Shown here piece after piece: positions 1 to 5,427 of a stretch of 5,427 bases of DNA (within the stretch, counting starts at the first letter, position 1; each line of letters opens with the position of its first letter). A model generated the notes under the pieces. The model was not told where the DNA came from and did not search any database. It saw only the letters and a program-made list of their open reading frames with translations. Made by a program: the position numbers and the translations under genes. The stretch comes from a virus (taxonomy: Duplodnaviria > Heunggongvirae > Uroviricota > Caudoviricetes), in IMG/VR virus record IMGVR_UViG_2534681662_000019; one strand, written 5' to 3'.

Positions 1-330
1 CCGGACTGTACCAGCGAAAACGGCACCCTGTCCGAACGCCGGCGGGCTGCCGCGAATAAAATGCGTATGACCGGCAATCTGAGTCGGCGCTTTTATGAAT
101 GGCTGGCTGCGCAGTACGGTTTTACCGTCAGGCTGACGGATTCCACAGAAGGCCAGTGGGTTACGCAGGTCAATATTTACGGTATTAAAAATTATCGCAA
201 CGCAACGGTGCTGGATAATGTTCTGACGCCGTTACGTGTTTATGAATCGGGTGCGCTGGAATGTTTACTGGAGAAATATAAACCCGCGCATCAGATTTAT
301 AAATTTGTTTACCATGACGGAGATAACTAA
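1..330 (+). CDS. 3'-terminal part of a phage tail/baseplate protein gene (Mu gene-48-like); 5' end lies upstream of the window
   Basis: Frame 1 is open from base 1 with no stop before the ATG at 61 listed in the ORF track, so the gene probably starts upstream. Its TAA stop (328-330) overlaps the S start codon as TAATG, a coupling typical of phage late operons. Product assignment is by position only. Confidence 0.55.
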   Translation, partial: PDCTSENGTLSERRRAAANKMRMTGNLSRRFYEWLAAQYGFTVRLTDSTEGQWVTQVNIYGIKNYRNATVLDNVLTPLRVYESGALECLLEKYKPAHQIYKFVYHDGDN

Positions 331-1865
331 TGTTTTATATTGATAACGACAGCGGCGTAACCGTCATGCCGCCCGTATCCGCCCAGCGTAGTGCTATCGT
401 TCGCTGGTTTTCAGAAGGTGACGGGAATAATGCTATCACATGGCCCGGCATGGACTGGTTTAATATTGTGCAGGCGGAGTTATTAAACACGCTGAAAGAA
501 GCCGGTATTCAACCGGATAAAACAAAATTAAACCAGCTTGCACTGTCCATTAAAGCCATTATGAGCAATAACGCGCTGCTGATAAAAAATAACCTCAGCG
601 AAATTAAAACTGCCGGGGCATCAGCACAGCGTACAGCACGTGAAAATCTGGATATCTGGGATGCCAGCCTGAACAAAAAAGGCCTCGTTCAGCTAACCAG
701 TGCCACTGACAGCCCCAGTGAAACGCTGGCAGCCACCGCAAAAGCGGTGAAAATTGCGATGGATAATGCCAATGCCCGTCTGGCAAAAGAGCGGAACGGA
801 GCAGATATTCCCAATAAACCGCTGTTTATCCAAAACCTCGGTTTGCAGGAAACAGTAAACAAGGCTGGTAACGCCGTTCAGCGTTCCGGCGATAAAATGA
901 CCGGAGAACTGAAAATTGGCACGGTGAATGCGCTGCGAATTTTCAATGATGCCTTCGGTCTTATTTTCCGTCGTTCAGAAGAGTACCTTCATTTCATCCC
1001 TACGGCTGAAGGACAAGGCGAAAACGGTGATATCGGCCCATTAAGGCCATTCGCTATAAATCTGAGAACAGGTGCTATATCTGTCAGCCACGGGGCCAAA
1101 ATTGATGGTGGGCTGGCGCTTGGTACAGATAACGCACTGGGCGGTAATTCCATTACTCTCGGAGATAACGACACTGGTATTAAACAGGGCGGCGACGGTG
1201 TCCTTTTATTCTATTCAAATGGACAACTGGCATTTGGGCTTCAACCCGCATCTGCTGATTTTTATAAGCGGGTTGCATATATTCATCAGGGAATAATTCC
1301 TGATGGAAGTGGCGCATTTGCAGACCAGTTGAATAATGCCACCGCGCCTTTTGTTCAGACGCAGTTTGCCTGGAATCCCACTCCTGGTGGTCATTACGTG
1401 CCGATAGTTAAGGGCTTGTCCATTCGCAATGGACAGGGCTATCCCGGCGCGGTCAGCTTTGGGTATTTACTGACAGAACAGTATGGATTTCCGGTTCCAT
1501 GTATTCATATGCGTGGCGATGGCGGTAATGATGCTTTATGGCAGTTTAACCCGAACGATAAATCCTTTATTTCACCGGGTGCTCTTATTGCGGGTGGCGT
1601 CCATTATAACACCGATGGAAATATATTTGGTGGGTGCTGGGGTTCAAACTTAAATGATTACCTGAATAGTTCTTTTATCAGAAATGTGCGTCTGGGAGGC
1701 AGACGTTCTGACGTATTATATCGCGGAGGACTTTGCGAACCAGGTAATGGTCATGTGACAACAGGATTGCAAATTATTGGTGAGGTTGATGGAGATGACT
1801 GGATGGTGTCACGACCACTACAAAAATACATTTCTGGTAACTGGTATAACGTTGAACAGGCATAG
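330..1865 (+). CDS. S: Tail fibre protein S: constant N-terminal part (Sc, about 330-838) fused in frame to the variable part Sv inside the invertible segment
   Basis: 511-aa ORF with ATG overlapping the upstream stop. It reads through gixL (826-851) as ...FIQNLGLQETVNKAGNAV... It shares a Gly-rich block (ALGGNSITLGDNDTGIKQGGDGVL) and a C-terminal block (GLQIIGEVDGDD...WYNVEQA) with the minus-strand S'v cassette. Followed 15 nt later by a tail-fibre assembly gene. Confidence 0.9.
   Translation: MFYIDNDSGVTVMPPVSAQRSAIVRWFSEGDGNNAITWPGMDWFNIVQAELLNTLKEAGIQPDKTKLNQLALSIKAIMSNNALLIKNNLSEIKTAGASAQRTARENLDIWDASLNKKGLVQLTSATDSPSETLAATAKAVKIAMDNANARLAKERNGADIPNKPLFIQNLGLQETVNKAGNAVQRSGDKMTGELKIGTVNALRIFNDAFGLIFRRSEEYLHFIPTAEGQGENGDIGPLRPFAINLRTGAISVSHGAKIDGGLALGTDNALGGNSITLGDNDTGIKQGGDGVLLFYSNGQLAFGLQPASADFYKRVAYIHQGIIPDGSGAFADQLNNATAPFVQTQFAWNPTPGGHYVPIVKGLSIRNGQGYPGAVSFGYLLTEQYGFPVPCIHMRGDGGNDALWQFNPNDKSFISPGALIAGGVHYNTDGNIFGGCWGSNLNDYLNSSFIRNVRLGGRRSDVLYRGGLCEPGNGHVTTGLQIIGEVDGDDWMVSRPLQKYISGNWYNVEQA
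826..851. other. gixL: gixL recombination site for Gin invertase (TTATCCAAAACC-TC-GGTTTGCAGGAA)
   Basis: 26-bp site with two 12-bp half-sites around a central TC dinucleotide (838-839). It matches the gix/hix half-site pattern as I recall it and is present in inverted orientation at 3837-3862. It lies inside the S coding sequence, as expected for the Sc/Sv junction. Confidence 0.85.
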
Positions 1866-1880
1866 CCATCAGGAGAATAT

Positions 1881-2408
1881 ATGCAACATCTGAAAAATAT
1901 TACCGCCGGAAACCCCAAAACCATTGAGCAGTATCAGCTTACGAAAAAAGCTGGCGTTATCTGGCTATATACAGAAGACGGTAAAAACTGGTATGACGAA
2001 TTAAAAAACTTTCAGGATGATACTTTAAAAATAGCTTATGACCAGAAGGGGATTATTCGTTGTATTGAGAAAGACGTATCAATGCTTAACCCTGACGGGT
2101 TAAGTGTTGTTGAGTTACCGAATATAACAGCCAACCGTCGCGCCGATATCTCGGGAAACTGGAAGTTTCTGGATGGTAAAGTAGTAAAGCGGGAATATAC
2201 AAAACAGGAACTGCAACAGCAGGCAGAGTTACAAAAAGCCGCTTTGCTTTCCGAAGCGGAGTCTGTGATTCAACCGCTGGAACGTGCTGTCAGACTGAAT
2301 ATGGCAACTGATGAGGAACGCACACGACTGGAATCATGGGAACGCTACAGCGTTATGGTCAGCCGTGTGGATACTGCAAAGCCTGAATGGCCACAGAAAC
2401 CAGAATAA
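1881..2408 (+). CDS. U: Tail fibre assembly protein U (chaperone for S)
   Basis: 175-aa ORF with AGGAG (1871-1875) 5 nt upstream of the ATG. Clear paralogue of the minus-strand 177-aa ORF (both start MQHLKNI..GNPKT.EQYQLTK...[12 protein letters not shown] and share ITANRRAD). Position directly after the fibre gene. Confidence 0.9.
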
Positions 2409-2417
2409 CAACAAATT

Positions 2418-2440
2418 AAGGCCCGTACGGGCCTTTTCTT
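2418..2440. terminator. Bidirectional rho-independent terminator between the convergent U and U' genes
   Basis: Hairpin aaGGCCC-gtac-GGGCCtt (2418-2435) followed by TTTTCTT on the + strand and preceded by an A/T-rich run (TTAATTTGTTGTT on the - strand). It sits in the 30-bp gap between the U stop (2406-2408) and the U' stop (2439-2441). Confidence 0.6.
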
Positions 2441-2972
2441 ATTCTGGTGGTTCCGGGAATGTTACAGGAAGAACCGAGGTATCAGTTGTCTCAACCTGTT
2501 GCACGTATCGCATCCAGTTCATCAGTTGCTGTCTGTCTGAATCAGTGATAATCCCCAAAGTAAGCTGTGTTTGCCAGAACTGCGTTTTTTCTCTGGCCTG
2601 CTGTAATAATATTTTTTTCTGGTTTTCCGTCTGTAGGCGCAACTCTTCTTCGGTATATACACGTTTAATGACTGCGCCATCTTTAAACATCCATTTACCT
2701 GAGTCGTCAGCACGCCGGTTGGCGGTAATATCAGGAATCTCAACGACGCTATAACCTTCAGGGTTAAGTGTGGAGGCATCTTTGGTTATGGCAACAATAA
2801 TATTATTTTCGTCGTAAACAATCTTTATGGTGTCTTCCTGAAAGTTATTTACTTCCTCATACCAGTTTTTACCGTCTTCTGTATATAACCAGATAACATC
2901 AAAATTCTTTGTTAGCTGATATTGCTCTTTTGTTTTTGGATTTCCTGACTTAATATTTTTTAAATGCTGCAT
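2439..2972 (-). CDS. U': Tail fibre assembly protein U' (chaperone for the alternative fibre S')
   Basis: 177-aa ORF on the minus strand, paralogous to U. Its ATG (2970-2972) lies 1 nt after the S'v stop codon (TAA, complement of 2976-2978), with AGGTG just upstream on the minus strand. Confidence 0.9.
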
Positions 2973-2975
2973 AAT

Positions 2976-3848
2976 TTACACCTGTGCGACGTTATACCAT
3001 GTGCCATTGATGTATTTTTGTATTGGTCTGAAGATGGCTTCATCATCGCCATCTACTTCACCAATGATTCTTAATCCGGTAATTGCGTGTCCGGCTTTTT
3101 CATAACGACCACCACGCGCCATCAATTGAACAACACGCGTACCCAGGCGAACATCTTTCACATAGCGGGAATCAAAATTCCCCCAGTTGCTGGGTTGTAT
3201 CTGACCGTTAACAGCAAATATTACTGAGTTATCTGTATTTCGCTGACTATAGAAATGCCAGCCAGAATCATCGCCAAGCTCTGCAACAGTTGGCCTTGAC
3301 GAAGCGCCCCATAAATTAAACCCTACGTTCTTCGTGGAGTTGTTGGAGCTGGATAGCGTGAATTTTTTACCATCCCCGGCCTGAATATTTTTAAAAGCAA
3401 TAGCCACTCCATTCTGAAAGCGGAATACACGCTGACTATTAGCATAAACATCCAGAATACCGTCTCCATTCTGTTTAAATCCGGTGTCATTATCACCAAG
3501 AACAATAGAGCTACCACCTAACGCATTCGTCGTACCAACTCCAAGACTGCCATTAATGACGGCATTTACCAGAATATTTAGTGCATCCCATTTCAGCGTC
3601 ATCAGGTCTTTTGTTGTGGTGCTCTGGCGGCTTCTCCATTTGAAATATTCATTGCCGTTGTCGCCTGTTTCAAACCACATGTATGAATCAGTGTCACCAT
3701 CGGCATCATTTTTAAATCCAATCTTCGCCCAGTCAGTATTTCGAATCCAGGCAAGGATTGAGTCATTTTCAAAAGTAAGCCCACCGGACAAGGTATCGCC
3801 ATTTTTTTGCACGGCGTTACCAGCCTTGTTTACCGTTTCCTGCAAACC
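2976..3848 (-). CDS. S': S'v: promoterless, startless variable C-terminal cassette of the alternative tail fibre, expressed only after G inversion as an Sc-S'v fusion
   Basis: Minus-strand open frame homologous to Sv at both ends (QETVNKAGNAVQ... and ...GLRIIGEVDGDD...WYNVAQV). It has no ATG or RBS of its own; the ORF track's M at 3845 is a TTG that is the Leu codon of the shared ...NLGLQETV... junction. The frame is closed one codon outside the crossover by a TAA (complement of 3855-3857) within gixR. Confidence 0.85.
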   Translation of the reverse strand, partial: GLQETVNKAGNAVQKNGDTLSGGLTFENDSILAWIRNTDWAKIGFKNDADGDTDSYMWFETGDNGNEYFKWRSRQSTTTKDLMTLKWDALNILVNAVINGSLGVGTTNALGGSSIVLGDNDTGFKQNGDGILDVYANSQRVFRFQNGVAIAFKNIQAGDGKKFTLSSSNNSTKNVGFNLWGASSRPTVAELGDDSGWHFYSQRNTDNSVIFAVNGQIQPSNWGNFDSRYVKDVRLGTRVVQLMARGGRYEKAGHAITGLRIIGEVDGDDEAIFRPIQKYINGTWYNVAQV

Positions 3849-3870
3849 GAGGTTTTAGATAATGGCTGTT
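3835..3870 (+). promoter_or_regulatory. Candidate gin promoter overlapping gixR (-10-like GATAAT at 3858-3863)
   Basis: GATAAT hexamer inside the outer gixR half-site, about 55 nt upstream of the gin start; the -35 is weak. In the Gin/Hin/Cin family the invertase promoter is reported to overlap the adjacent recombination site. The exact hexamers here are my inference. Confidence 0.3.
3837..3862. other. gixR: gixR recombination site (TTCCTGCAAACC-GA-GGTTTTAGATAA), inverted relative to gixL
   Basis: Its reverse complement is TTATCTAAAACC-TC-GGTTTGCAGGAA, identical to gixL except for one base (C in gixL, T in gixR). Central dinucleotide at 3849-3850. Located between the S'v cassette and gin. 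Confidence 0.85.
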
Positions 3871-3916
3871 TCCGGCCTGCATGGCATGATTTGCGCTTTT
3901 AAACGGGAGATCCAGA

Positions 3917-4510
3917 GTGCTGATTGGCTATGTAAGGGTATCAACAAATGACCAGAATACAGACCTGCAACGAAACGCTCTTGTTTGTGCAGGATGTGAA
4001 CAAATATTTGAAGATAAATTAAGCGGAACAAGGACAGACAGACCTGGATTAAAGCGCGCTTTAAAGCGTCTTCAAAAAGGTGACACACTGGTTGTCTGGA
4101 AACTGGATCGCCTCGGGCGAAGCATGAAACATCTGATTTCTCTCGTCGGAGAACTACGGGAGCGAGGGATTAATTTTCGCAGCCTTACTGACAGTATTGA
4201 TACGTCATCCCCAATGGGGCGTTTTTTCTTCCACGTTATGGGTGCCCTAGCTGAAATGGAACGAGAACTAATCATCGAGCGAACGATGGCAGGACTTGCT
4301 GCCGCCAGAAATAAAGGCCGTATTGGTGGGCGACCACCTAAACTAACCAAAGCGGAATGGGAGCAGGCCGGGCGTTTATTAGCACAAGGAATCCCCCGCA
4401 AGCAGGTTGCATTGATCTACGATGTGGCCCTGTCAACTCTGTATAAAAAACACCCCGCGAAACGAACGCACATAGAAAACGACGATCGAATCAATCAAAT
4501 CGATCGGTAA
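3917..4510 (+). CDS. gin: Site-specific DNA invertase Gin (serine recombinase, resolvase/invertase family)
   Basis: ORF starting at GTG 3917 with GGGAG (3905-3909) upstream. N-terminus MLIGYVRVSTNDQ has the catalytic Ser at position 9. The catalytic domain and C-terminal helix-turn-helix (GGRPPKLTKAEWEQA...) are characteristic of Gin/Pin/Hin/Cin. Located directly beside gixR. Confidence 0.95.
   Translation: MLIGYVRVSTNDQNTDLQRNALVCAGCEQIFEDKLSGTRTDRPGLKRALKRLQKGDTLVVWKLDRLGRSMKHLISLVGELRERGINFRSLTDSIDTSSPMGRFFFHVMGALAEMERELIIERTMAGLAAARNKGRIGGRPPKLTKAEWEQAGRLLAQGIPRKQVALIYDVALSTLYKKHPAKRTHIENDDRINQIDR
3960..4075. promoter_or_regulatory. Candidate Fis-dependent recombinational enhancer (sis) within the 5' part of gin
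   Basis: In Mu the enhancer lies inside the start of the gin coding sequence. Here there are Fis-like 15-mers of the G-N13-C type with A/T-rich cores, for example GAAGATAAATTAAGC (4010-4024) and GCGCTTTAAAGCGTC (4056-4070), plus a weaker one at 3962-3976 whose centre is 48 bp from the first. The Fis motif is degenerate, so this placement is tentative. Confidence 0.25.
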
Positions 4511-4518
4511 TACAGATC
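4484..4518. promoter_or_regulatory. Cluster of three GATC (Dam) sites upstream of the mom promoter: the methylation-sensitive OxyR (MomR) operator
   Basis: GATC at 4484-4487, 4502-4505 and 4515-4518, each within a GATCGA/CGATCG context, just upstream of the -35 region. In Mu, OxyR binds this region when it is unmethylated and represses mom. The sites lie inside the last codons of gin. Confidence 0.65.
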
Positions 4519-4520
4519 GA

Positions 4521-4572
4521 TTATGTCTCAATAACCACACTCAACCCATGATGTTTTTTAAGATAGTGGCGA
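4521..4572 (+). promoter_or_regulatory. mom operon promoter (Pmom): C-activator dyad, weak -35, 19-bp spacer with T6 run, -10 TAAGAT
   Basis: TTAT-N6-ATAA dyad (4521-4534); -35-like ACCACA (4534-4539); 19-bp spacer; TTTTTT (4554-4559) abutting the -10 TAAGAT (4559-4564). This is about 30 nt upstream of the com RBS and matches what I recall of the activator-dependent Mu mom promoter. Confidence 0.55.
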
Positions 4573-4592
4573 ATTGATGCAAAGGAGGTGAG

Positions 4593-4781
4593 ATGAAATC
4601 AATTCGCTGTAAAAACTGCAACAAACTGTTATTTAAGGCGGATTCCTTTGATCACATTGAAATCAGGTGTCCGCGTTGCAAACGTCACATCATAATGCTG
4701 AATGCCTGCGAGCATCCCACGGAGAAACATTGTGGGAAAAGAGAAAAAATCACGCATTCTGACGAAACCGTGCGTTATTGA
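4593..4781 (+). CDS. com: Com, zinc-finger translational activator of mom
   Basis: 62-aa ORF with strong RBS AGGAGG (4583-4588). Cys-X2-Cys...Cys-X2-Cys motif (C6, C9, C26, C29). Its 3' end overlaps the mom start by about 50 nt, as in the Mu com-mom operon. Confidence 0.9.
4715..4737 (+). promoter_or_regulatory. mRNA hairpin (translation-inhibition structure) sequestering the mom start codon
   Basis: UCCCAC (4715-4720) pairs with GUGGGA (4732-4737). The 11-nt loop GGAGAAACAUU contains the mom Shine-Dalgarno GGAG, and the GUG start (4732-4734) is inside the 3' arm of the stem. Consistent with Com-dependent translational activation. Confidence 0.55.
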
Positions 4782-5427
4782 GTATGAAGGCCAGATTGTT
4801 GGCTATGGTTCAAAGGAGCTGCGCGTTGAAACCATATCCTGCTGGCTGGCCCGCACAATTATTCAGGCAAAGCACTATTCCCGCCGTTTTGTGAATAACT
4901 CTTACCTCCACCTGGGAGTATTCAGCGGACGCGATCTGGTTGGCGTTCTCCAGTGGGGATATGCCCTTAACCCCAACTCAGGTCGTCGTGTCGTGCTTGA
5001 AACGGATAACCGGGGCTATATGGAGTTGAACCGCATGTGGCTACACGACGACATGCCCCGCAACTCTGAATCACGGGCCATCAGTTATGCACTGAAAACC
5101 ATAAGGTTACTGTATCCGTCAGTGGAGTGGGTTCAGTCTTTTGCAGACGAACGCTGCGGACGTGCTGGCGTTGTGTATCAGGCGTCAAATTTTGATTTTA
5201 TTGGCAGCCATGAAAGCACGTTCTACGAGCTGGATGGTGAGTGGTATCACGAGATAACGATGAACGCGATTAAACGCGGTGGACAACGAGGCGTGTATTT
5301 ACGGGCTAATAAAGAGCGTGCCGTGGTGCACAAATTTAATCAGTATCGCTACATCAGGTTCCTGAACAAGCGAGCAAGGAAGCGACTAAATACCAAGCTA
5401 TTCAAGGTTCAGCCATACCCTAAGTGA
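4732..5427 (+). CDS. mom: Mom, DNA adenine-modification protein (anti-restriction)
   Basis: Long ORF ending at the window edge. GTG 4732 has GGAG 7 nt upstream and gives 231 aa, the length I recall for Mu Mom. The in-frame ATG at 4702 (241 aa) used by the ORF track has no RBS. Overlaps com in a different frame. Confidence 0.85.

What the first reader, a model, noticed from the sequence alone, without database searches (positions are those of the whole stretch)
4471..4520. Dual-use sequence: the Dam/OxyR operator of mom is embedded in the codons for the C-terminal tail of Gin
The three GATC sites (4484, 4502, 4515), in a repetitive GATCGA/ATCAATCAAATC context, overlap the last gin codons (...ENDDRINQIDR) and the stop. 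The tail lies beyond the helix-turn-helix and looks low-complexity, as if its sequence is set by the regulatory DNA rather than by protein function. Related invertases are shorter at the C-terminus as I recall, which fits this reading.
Basis: partly seen in the sequence, partly recalled or inferred. Interest (0 to 1): 0.55.

Follow-up and report, generated by a model that had tools for sequence, protein, structure and literature searches.

The report
Gin's tail encoded by mom operator
In this Mu-like phage the last 12-16 codons of the DNA invertase gene gin are the methylation-sensitive repressor-binding DNA that controls the neighbouring toxic mom gene; the control element is long known, and the new detail is that the protein tail looks like an accidental, variable read-through of it.

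Summary
**Observation:** confirmed. GATC sits at 4484, 4502 and 4515. gin (3917-4510, 197 aa) ends ...ENDDRINQIDR with TAA at 4508-4510. GATC-1 and GATC-2 lie in codons; GATC-3 lies 5 nt past the stop.

**Source:** a Mu/D108-type phage, 97% identical to Mu. Between ATAG and GATC-3 it differs from Mu's studied Dam/OxyR control region at one base.

**That base matters:** Mu has a TAA stop at 4496-4498 where the window has CAA. QIDR is therefore a stop-loss read-through.

**Gin length:** among 30 Mu-type loci, Gin is 193, 197 or 205 aa. All three GATCs are invariant.

**Tail is lineage-specific:** invertase homology ends at Pro180-Ala181 (4459). Cin is 186 aa, Pin 184 aa and a Hin-like protein 188 aa.

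**The operator stands alone:**
- It is conserved where it is non-coding. In one phage gin stops 5 nt before it. In more than 18 loci no gin is present.
- It is more conserved than gin's synonymous sites (36/47 vs 36/70, p=0.005).
- P1-like elements that lost com-mom have lost all three GATCs.

**Verdict:** The system itself is already known, so interest is modest. OxyR binding was not testable here, and the primary papers were not readable.

The parts
3917..4510 (+). gin, serine DNA invertase, 197-aa allele with GTG start and TAA stop at 4508-4510
   Evidence: ORF. Pfam Resolvase at 3-135 and HTH_7 at 138-181. Residues 1-193 are about 99% identical to PDB Gin 3UJ3/4M6F.
4460..4507 (+). Lineage-specific Gin tail (KRTHIENDDRINQIDR), beyond the last family-invariant residues Pro180-Ala181
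   Evidence: Alignment with Cin, Pin, Hin-like, L124 and SJ46 invertases. Tails of 80 further invertases.
4496..4507 (+). Four-codon read-through extension (QIDR). 4496-4498 is CAA here, but is the TAA stop in Mu and TGA in other alleles
4472..4475 (.). ATAG, the left quarter-site of the OxyR-like motif. It is conserved in operator classes A, B and D
4484..4487 (.). GATC-1 (Dam site, about -87), inside CGATCG at 4483-4488. Codons Asp-Arg of Gin
   Evidence: The 18-bp PvuI fragment in PMC3378877.
4502..4505 (.). GATC-2 (Dam site, about -69), inside CGATCG at 4501-4506. It is coding only in the 197- and 205-aa alleles
4515..4518 (.). GATC-3 (Dam site, about -56), 5 nt downstream of the gin stop in this window
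4498..4522 (.). Dyad AATCGATCGGTA / TACAGATCGATT carrying GATC-2 and GATC-3. The gin stop codon sits at its centre
   Evidence: A similar 13-bp-spaced GATC dyad occurs in class C loci.
4520..4535 (.). ATTAT-N6-ATAAC dyad, the inferred binding site of transactivator C. The 205-aa Gin allele stops inside it at 4532-4534
   Evidence: Sequence. The Mu record annotates the late promoter at positions equal to window 4518-4584. Assignment to C rests on my own knowledge of the literature.
4559..4571 (+). mom -10 element TAAGAT (4559-4564) and inferred transcription start at about 4571
   Evidence: Primer GGAATCCGCCTTAAATAACA is said to anneal downstream of +56 (PMC3378877). It maps to 4627-4646.
4438..4487 (.). 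Two published Fis footprints (-133..-115 and -107..-84) mapped onto the window at 4438-4456 and 4464-4487. Both lie in gin codons
   Evidence: PMC3378877, with the transcription start placed at 4571. The mapping is my inference.
4593..4781 (+). com, the translational activator of mom
   Evidence: ORF. Pfam Zn_ribbon_Com.
4702..5427 (+). mom, the DNA modification gene. The start is annotated at ATG 4702 or at the equivalent of 4732 in different records
   Evidence: ORF. Pfam Mom, E = 2.5e-75. Annotations.

Best explanation
Window 4472-4518 is the upstream Dam/OxyR part of the com-mom control region of a Mu/D108-type phage.

**Mechanism (established for Mu, inferred here from near-identity).** Host OxyR binds this DNA when its three GATCs are unmethylated and represses the mom promoter. 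Dam methylation of the GATCs excludes OxyR. The phage activator C, bound just downstream, can then switch on com-mom late in infection.

**Why it lies in gin codons.** The operator belongs to the com-mom cassette and exists independently of gin. In the Mu lineage the junction between gin and the cassette is short: 12 nt separate the Ala181 codon from ATAG, against 28 nt with a stop codon in the related phage L124. No stop is left before the operator. The gin frame therefore runs on into the operator until the first chance in-frame stop.

**Consequence.** The last residues of Gin are dictated by operator DNA, not by invertase function, and their number varies with point mutations in stop codons.
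- 193 aa in Mu: only GATC-1 is coding.
- 197 aa in this window: TAA has become CAA, so GATC-1 and GATC-2 are coding.
- 205 aa in some phages: all three GATCs and part of the C site are coding.
For: **Shown here**
- The window is 97% identical to Mu and 99.5% to Yersinia phage vB_YpM_5. com and mom follow gin.
- From ATAG to GATC-3 the window differs from Mu only at 4496, which converts Mu's TAA stop to CAA.
- Among 30 Mu-type loci (22 haplotypes), Gin is 193 aa in 9, 197 aa in 18 and 205 aa in 3. All three GATCs, the ATAG and both CGATCG are invariant. The variable sites in the operator (4492, 4496, 4497, 4508, 4513) fall in spacers and stop codons.
- Family homology ends at Pro180-Ala181. Cin is 186 aa, Pin 184 aa, Hin-like 188 aa. 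None of 80 other invertases has the ENDDRIN tail, a GATC cluster or com-mom downstream.
- In L124 (Gin-like protein 79% identical, followed by com-mom) the invertase stops 5 nt before the ATAG. The operator, with the same 18 + 13 bp GATC spacing, is non-coding and would be read in a different frame.
- Operator identity to L124 is 36/47, against 36/70 at fourfold-degenerate sites of gin (Fisher p = 0.005).
- In 18 or more loci with Mom 92-97% identical, no gin is present. The upstream DNA is otherwise unrelated and intergenic, yet it keeps ATAG-N7-CGATCG-N12-CGATCG.
- Three kinds of gin-deleted Mu-type loci retain everything from about 4460-4471 rightwards.
- SJ46 and an E. coli plasmid carry the Mu-type gin 3' end, operator, promoter and first 20 nt of com, but no com-mom. 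All three GATCs are mutated and 5 of the 9 operator-encoded tail residues have changed, while the preceding HTH is nearly identical.
- The two best matches in the whole window to the OxyR tetramer consensus (13 of 20) fall at 4481-4526.

**From held papers**
- Dam methylation of three GATCs in 43 bp upstream of mom prevents OxyR binding (PMC7549136).
- Dam and OxyR control mom (PMC2909390; PMC3378877).
- PvuI fragments of 18 bp and the primer position fix the transcription start near 4571.
Against: - OxyR binding and its sensitivity to methylation were not, and cannot be, tested with these tools. The primary papers (Bolker & Kahmann 1989; Sun & Hattman 1996; Hattman & Sun 1997; Hattman 1999) are not in the held library.
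- The footprint limits I quote (about -104 to -46) come from my memory of the Sun & Hattman abstract.
- The match to the OxyR consensus is only moderate (12-13 of 20), and several registers score alike.
- Within Mu-type phages divergence is too low to separate protein-level from DNA-level constraint on codons 186-193: one variable third position among 8 codons.
- The HIENDDRIN residues are invariant in all gin-mom phages, so a protein role is not excluded.
- The direction of the junction change (deletion in the Mu lineage or insertion in L124) rests on parsimony with other invertases.
- Single-sequence AlphaFold was uninformative.
Confidence: 0.85

Rival explanations
1. The tail is a functional part of Gin, for example contacting DNA next to the gix site as the Hin C-terminal tail is said to do, or modulating Fis-dependent synapsis. 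On this view the GATCs were fitted into pre-existing, selected codons, making this true two-way dual coding.
For: HIENDDRIN is invariant in all 22 Mu-type haplotypes. Hin and several other invertases also carry 10-18 residue tails beyond Pro-Ala.
Against: - The tail shows no similarity to any other invertase tail.
- Its length is polymorphic at 193, 197 and 205 aa among near-identical phages.
- The same DNA is conserved where it is non-coding or would be read in another frame.
- The tail residues change as soon as mom is lost, while the adjacent HTH does not.
- The tail is acidic (ENDD), which fits poorly with DNA contact. This last point is inference.
Confidence: 0.08
2. The GATC cluster is a chance by-product of a low-complexity ATC-rich stretch and has no regulatory role in this particular phage.
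For: The local sequence is repetitive (GATCGAATCAATCAAATCGATCGG). Against shuffles that carry about 18 GATCs, the clustering is only marginal at 4.2%.
Against: - There is one base difference from the experimentally studied Mu operator.
- All GATCs are invariant in 30 loci.
- ATAG and CGATCG are conserved at identical spacing in unrelated sequence contexts upstream of mom.
- The operator is more conserved than synonymous sites.
- With the observed 8 GATCs, the chance of such a cluster is 0.5%.
Confidence: 0.02
3. The overlap is itself functional. Transcription or translation of gin across the operator, or leftward transcription from the divergent momP2 promoter into the gin 3' end, would couple invertase expression to OxyR occupancy or Dam methylation. 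The stop position would then tune that coupling.
For: No terminator-like site lies between gin and com. The stop codon of the 197-aa allele sits at the centre of the GATC-2/GATC-3 dyad. Three stop positions coexist in nature.
Against: No direct evidence exists. Com-mom phages without gin, or with gin stopping before the operator, keep the same operator, so coupling is not required for mom control. A stop-codon polymorphism with no associated changes looks neutral.
Confidence: 0.05

Closest known systems
Bacteriophage Mu mom operon upstream control region (three Dam sites and OxyR, also called MomR; 'region I')
   Same: The position upstream of com-mom is the same, as are the three GATCs at 18 + 13 bp spacing. 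From ATAG to GATC-3 the sequence is identical apart from one base. This is the same element in a sister phage.
   Different: Mu has a TAA stop at 4496-4498, so only GATC-1 is in gin codons there. Here a T-to-C change extends Gin by QIDR, and GATC-2 becomes coding. There are also two differences in the C-site spacer (4526, 4528).
agn43 (Ag43) and gtr (P22 and Salmonella) Dam/OxyR epigenetic switches
   Same: OxyR sites containing GATCs whose methylation blocks OxyR binding (PMC2909390).
   Different: Those sites are intergenic and drive heritable phase variation. Whether mom phase-varies is stated to be unknown (PMC2909390). Here part of the site is read as codons of an upstream gene.
Other regulatory or recombination sites embedded in invertase genes: the Fis-dependent enhancer inside the 5' part of gin/hin/cin, and cixL overlapping the cin 3' end in P1
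   Same: Coding DNA of a serine invertase doubles as a protein-binding site. The P1 record annotates the enhancer inside cin, and a Cin-binding cixL site overlapping the last cin codons. Fis sites within gin are noted in PMC3378877.
   Different: Those sites serve the invertase's own reaction. The mom operator serves an unrelated neighbouring operon, and the codons over it appear dispensable.
C-terminal extension by stop-codon loss into downstream non-coding DNA
   Same: TAA/TGA, CAA, and a second TAA/CAA polymorphism give 193-, 197- and 205-aa proteins whose added residues are simply the translation of downstream DNA.
   Different: Here the downstream DNA is a strongly constrained operator, so the added residues are conserved for reasons unrelated to the protein.

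Membership tests
Mu-type mom Dam/OxyR operator | Lies directly upstream of the C-dependent promoter of a com-mom operon | tested here: met
   com (Pfam Zn_ribbon_Com) and mom (Pfam Mom, E = 2.5e-75) follow. The GATCs lie at about -87, -69 and -56 relative to the transcription start placed by the published primer. The Mu record's promoter feature maps to 4518-4584.
Mu-type mom Dam/OxyR operator | Three GATC (Dam) sites within about 43 bp | tested here: met
   GATC at 4484, 4502 and 4515, a span of 35 bp. The published description is in PMC7549136.
Mu-type mom Dam/OxyR operator | Sequence homology to the experimentally characterised Mu element | tested here: met
   One difference (4496) between ATAG and GATC-3 in an ungapped alignment with AF083977.
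Mu-type mom Dam/OxyR operator | Match to the OxyR binding consensus (ATAGnTnnnAnCTAT x2) | tested here: inconclusive
   The best scores in the whole window (13 of 20) fall at 4481 and 4490, with 12 of 20 at 4472. The match is moderate and the register is ambiguous. L124 scores 15 of 20 in the ATAG register.
Mu-type mom Dam/OxyR operator | OxyR binds unmethylated but not fully methylated DNA and represses mom | not testable with these tools
   Needs EMSA or footprinting and dam/oxyR genetics. Known for Mu only from the literature (PMC2909390, PMC3378877, PMC7549136 citing primary papers that are not held).
Gin/Hin/Cin/Pin serine DNA invertases | N-terminal resolvase catalytic domain with the active-site serine, plus a C-terminal HTH_7 domain | tested here: met
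   Pfam Resolvase at 3-135 (E = 7e-50) and HTH_7 at 138-181 (E = 2.4e-17). Ser9 is invariant in the alignment. About 99% identical to PDB Gin.
Gin/Hin/Cin/Pin serine DNA invertases | Adjacent invertible segment carrying alternative tail-fibre gene ends | tested here: met
   S/U ORFs on the + strand (330-1865, 1881-2408) and U'/S' ORFs on the - strand (2439-2972, 2976-3845) lie immediately upstream of gin. The Mu record marks the G-segment boundary at a position equal to window 3850. The gix sites themselves were not examined.
Gin/Hin/Cin/Pin serine DNA invertases | Conserved C-terminal tail beyond the HTH | tested here: not met
   No column is conserved after Pro180-Ala181. Tails differ in length and sequence. 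A conserved tail is therefore not a family feature, and this does not affect membership.

The most novel reading that the evidence does not exclude
The com-mom genes and their Dam/OxyR operator form a self-contained, exchangeable cassette whose left boundary is the OxyR site at about window 4460-4472. The Gin tail would then be a neutral junction artefact. It is kept constant only because the DNA under it is an operator, and it is free to lengthen or shorten as stop codons mutate (193, 197 or 205 aa). In a stronger version, the position of the gin stop relative to the operator and C site measurably tunes OxyR or C occupancy, coupling gin expression to mom control.
Probability: 0.35. Interest if true: 0.4.

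Novelty: already known. Interest (0 to 1): 0.27.

Why it matters
The Dam/OxyR control of mom is a textbook case of methylation-sensitive repression, so finding it again adds nothing new.

The comparison adds a small, clean example of how a regulatory element can impose a conserved-looking peptide on a neighbouring protein. An annotator or evolutionary analysis would read HIENDDRIN(QIDR) as a conserved C-terminal motif of Gin. The conservation in fact belongs to the operator.

The comparison also marks the left edge of the functional operator through natural deletions and cassette junctions. It shows that three Gin length variants circulate, which matters for anyone using Gin variants or annotating Mu-like prophages.

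Tried and rejected
- **Primary literature.** I tried to read PMC401183, PMC147061, PMC146201 and PMC2755769. None is held. Full-text searches for papers discussing the gin/mom-operator overlap found nothing. I therefore cannot say whether the overlap was explicitly discussed, and the OxyR footprint limits rest on my memory.
- **AlphaFold2.** A single-sequence model of the 197-aa Gin gave mean pLDDT 43.6 and pTM 0.27, which says nothing about tail disorder. The alignment I had could not be submitted because its rows came from fetched loci.
- **Constraint within Mu-type phages.** A test by codon position has no power: 8 tail codons and one variable third position. I used the L124 comparison instead.
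- **Shuffle test.** The dinucleotide-shuffle test is diluted because shuffles carry about 18 GATCs against the real 8. I added a fixed-count simulation.
- **Species-representative genomes.** The scan with Gin returned 80 invertases, none Mu-type. It was useful only as an outgroup for tail lengths.
- **Promoter and terminator scan of 4300-4750.** It found nothing. This is expected for the weak, activator-dependent mom promoter.
- **Billion-protein searches.** I did not run them, because the fetched DNA loci already answered the tail question.

Full report
**1. What is in the window**

The window is the right end of a Mu/D108-type phage.
- On the + strand it carries the tail-fibre genes S and U (330-1865, 1881-2408).
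- On the - strand it carries the alternative U' and S' (2439-2972, 2976-3845).
- These are followed by gin (3917-4510), com (4593-4781) and mom (4702-5427).
- Pfam confirms Resolvase + HTH_7, Zn_ribbon_Com and Mom.
- The best database match to 3850-4800 is Yersinia phage vB_YpM_5 at 99.5%. D108 is 98.2% identical and Mu 97.0%.

**2. The observation**

GATC occurs at 4484, 4502 and 4515, as stated. The first two lie within CGATCG sites 18 bp apart, the only two such sites in the window.

gin encodes 197 aa ending KRTHIENDDRINQIDR, with TAA at 4508-4510. GATC-1 and GATC-2 are therefore inside codons. GATC-3 is 5 nt beyond the stop.

The window has only 8 GATCs where about 18 are expected.
- With 8 sites placed at random, three fall within 35 bp in 0.5% of trials.
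- Against shuffles with about 18 sites the figure is 4.2%.
- Conservation, described below, settles that the cluster is not chance.

**3. Identity of the element**

An ungapped alignment with Mu (AF083977) shows a single difference between ATAG (4472) and GATC-3 (4518), at 4496.

Held papers describe the system.
- Dam methylation of three GATCs within a 43-bp region upstream of mom prevents OxyR binding (PMC7549136, citing Sun & Hattman 1996).
- Dam and OxyR control mom (PMC2909390; PMC3378877).

I placed the mom transcription start at about 4571.
- PMC3378877 gives a primer said to anneal downstream of +56. It maps to 4627-4646.
- The same paper reports an 18-bp PvuI fragment, which matches the two CGATCG sites.
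- The GATCs therefore lie at about -87, -69 and -56.
- The Mu record's late-promoter feature maps to 4518-4584.

From my memory of the Sun & Hattman 1996 abstract, reduced-type OxyR protects about -104 to -46. That would be about 4467-4525. I could not verify this, because the primary papers are not held.

The two best matches in the whole window to the OxyR tetramer consensus fall at 4481 and 4490 (13 of 20). The match is moderate and the register ambiguous.

A 12-nt dyad at 4498-4509 / 4511-4522 carries GATC-2 and GATC-3, and the gin stop sits at its centre.

Published Fis footprints at -133..-115 and -107..-84 map to 4438-4456 and 4464-4487. Both are also in gin codons (the mapping is mine).

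**4. The single difference from Mu is the Mu stop codon**

Mu gin is annotated as 582 nt and ends ...ENDDRIN-TAA. The crystallised Gin proteins are also 193 aa. The window has CAA where Mu has TAA.

In Mu only GATC-1 is coding.

I tabulated 30 Mu-type loci with an ungapped full-length match. They came from phage records, E. coli prophages and viral contigs, and gave 22 haplotypes.

| Gin length | Loci | Stop |
|---|---|---|
| 193 aa | 9 | TAA or TGA at 4496-4498 |
| 197 aa | 18 (including D108, SfMu, the Yersinia phages and this window) | TAA at 4508-4510 |
| 205 aa | 3 | 4508 T-to-C removes the second stop; the tail reads ...QIDRQYRSIMPQ and stops at 4532-4534, inside the C-site dyad |

- All three GATCs, the ATAG and both CGATCG are invariant.
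- The variable sites between ATAG and GATC-3 are 4492, 4496, 4497, 4508 and 4513. They fall in spacers and stop codons.

**5. The tail is not an invertase feature**

In an alignment with P1 Cin, e14 Pin, a Hin-like protein, the L124 invertase and the SJ46 invertase, the last invariant columns are Pro180 and Ala181. Nothing aligns after them.

| Invertase | Length | C-terminal end |
|---|---|---|
| P1 Cin | 186 aa | ...KKFPASSFQS |
| e14 Pin | 184 aa | ...KRFPAGDK |
| Hin-like | 188 aa | ...RYFPASRIKKRN |

- The Hin DNA-binding peptide in the PDB aligns only to Gin residue 182, with 7 further residues.
- Among 80 invertases 67-80% identical to Gin from species-representative genomes, tails after STLYK are mostly 6-8 aa. 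None resembles ENDDRIN, none carries a GATC cluster and none is followed by com-mom.

**6. The operator exists without gin and as non-coding DNA**

I examined 42 viral-contig loci encoding Mom. Their upstream regions fall into classes.

- **Class A.** The Mu type described above.
- **Class D (L124).** This locus has a Gin-like invertase (79% identical) followed by com-mom.
  - The invertase ends ...KKFPASVIHNIG-TAG. The operator begins 5 nt later: CC-ATATAGGAACAATCGATCGAATAAATAGAATCGATCGGTTACGCAGATCAATTATGG.
  - It has the same ATAG and the same 18 + 13 bp GATC spacing. It is non-coding and sits in a different frame relative to the invertase.
  - Between the Ala181 codon and ATAG, Mu has 12 nt and L124 has 28 nt, including the stop.
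  - Window-versus-L124 identity is 36/47 across ATAG..GATC-3. It is 36/70 at fourfold-degenerate sites and 49% at third positions of gin (Fisher p = 0.005 and 0.0005).
  - The operator is therefore under DNA-level purifying selection.
- **Class B (18 or more loci).** Mom is 92-97% identical and Com about 72%.
  - No gin is present. The upstream gene is a DUF4376 tail-fibre-assembly-like ORF.
  - The 120-nt intergenic region is otherwise unalignable, yet it keeps ATAG-N7-CGATCG-N12-CGATCG. The third GATC is CATC there.
- **Class C (L122, L123).** Three intergenic GATCs, two of them in a 13-bp-spaced dyad.

A pattern scan of the viral collection for ATAG-N7-CGATCG-N12-CGATCG gave 91 matches. Of these, 37 lie about 216-268 nt upstream of mom: 16 with gin and 21 without. 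Most of the rest are GC-rich and look like chance matches.

**7. Natural deletions**

- Three kinds of Mu-type loci lack all or most of gin but keep com-mom. Homology to the window resumes at 4463 (L003, L086), at 4460 (L100-L104, an in-frame gin deletion) and between 4438 and 4471 (L099, L103).
- The only deletion that removes the operator (L126, window 4401-5052 missing) also removes com and the 5' half of mom.
- The numbers are small. They fit an operator that is indispensable while mom is intact.

**8. Loss of mom**

Phage-plasmid SJ46 and an E. coli plasmid carry a chimeric invertase. Its 3' part, operator, promoter and first 20 nt of com are Mu-type, but com-mom is gone.

- All three GATCs are mutated (GCTC, GGTC, GATT).
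- Identity to the window is 47/61 over 4460-4520. It is 107/120 over the 120 nt upstream (4340-4459) and 64/72 over the 72 nt downstream (4521-4592).
- The tail reads KRTCIESNAQTN, while the HTH before it is almost unchanged.
But the tail has diverged exactly where the GATCs were. It shows that neither the GATCs nor the residues are maintained once mom is absent.

**9. Conclusion and rivals**

*Best explanation (confidence about 0.85).* The segment is the Dam/OxyR operator of the com-mom cassette. In the Mu lineage a short junction leaves no stop codon before it, so gin is translated into it. The tail residues are set by operator DNA and their number by chance stop codons. The window carries the commonest allele, 197 aa.

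*Rivals.*
- A functional tail (0.08). It is not excluded because HIENDDRIN is invariant, but that invariance is explained by the DNA.
- Chance or low complexity (0.02).
- A functional coupling of gin read-through to operator occupancy (0.05, with no evidence).

*Shown here:* the anatomy, the polymorphism, the conservation in non-coding contexts, and the decay after mom loss.

*Inferred:* OxyR binding and methylation sensitivity in this phage (from near-identity to Mu), the footprint limits, and the direction of the junction change.

**10. Novelty**

The element and its mechanism have been known since the 1980s, and the overlap with gin is visible in the Mu sequence itself. I could not check whether it was ever discussed.

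The comparative points may be unreported, but they are incremental: three Gin length alleles, the operator as the left edge of an exchangeable com-mom cassette, and decay after mom loss. Interest is modest.

Noticed in passing
window 1-3908: There is no GATC in the first 3.9 kb, which holds the tail-fibre genes and the G segment. All 8 GATCs lie between 3909 and 4936. Shuffles predict about 18 for the window, and none of 200 shuffles had fewer than 8. This is strong GATC avoidance outside the gin-mom region.
   Followed up: no
window 4496-4498, 4508-4510 and 4532-4534; loci L001, L131, L135, L125: Three natural Gin length alleles (193, 197, 205 aa) arise from point changes in successive in-frame stop codons. 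The 205-aa form is translated through GATC-3 into the C-activator site.
   Followed up: yes
L164 3375-3425 (also L149, L167, L183, L213): An AT-rich intergenic element, ATAGATAAAAACGATCGTAAATCAATTATCGATCGTTTTTATCGATCATAA, has the same ATAG-N7-CGATCG-N12-CGATCG layout and 18 + 13 bp GATC spacing as the mom operator. It lies about 25 nt upstream of a 270-aa ORF with no Pfam match and is divergent from an FRG-domain ORF. It may be another Dam/OxyR-controlled prophage gene.
   Followed up: partly
L002 2078-2800 (Salmonella phage SJ46) and L004 1538-2330 (E. coli plasmid NZ_CP159120.1): These P1-like phage-plasmids carry a chimeric invertase. Its C-terminal HTH, the mom operator and promoter remnant and the first 20 nt of com are Mu-derived, followed by an inverted invertase gene fragment. 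This is a fossil of recombination between Mu-like and P1-like invertible-segment regions.
   Followed up: partly
L128 952-982 (phage P1): The P1 record annotates the Cin-binding cixL site as overlapping the last codons and stop of cin (CDS ends at 961), and the inversion enhancer as lying inside the cin 5' coding region. These are further dual-use stretches in invertase genes.
   Followed up: no
window 4702 versus 4732: Public records disagree on the mom start codon. D108, SfMu and RefSeq E. coli prophages start at the ATG equal to window 4702. The Mu_3F6, PhiR68_1 and Yersinia phage records, and the Mu record AF083977, start 30 nt downstream.
   Followed up: no
L100-L104 (viral contigs), equivalent to window 4081-4459 deleted: An in-frame internal deletion of gin joins codon 55 to the tail codons (…LQKG-THIENDDRIN). 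It leaves a 65-aa remnant ORF that still ends in the operator.
   Followed up: partly
window 4438-4487: Two of the five Fis sites reported for the mom promoter (centred at -123 and -98, PMC3378877) map into the last 25 codons of gin. The 3' end of gin therefore carries several stacked protein-binding sites, not only OxyR.
   Followed up: partly
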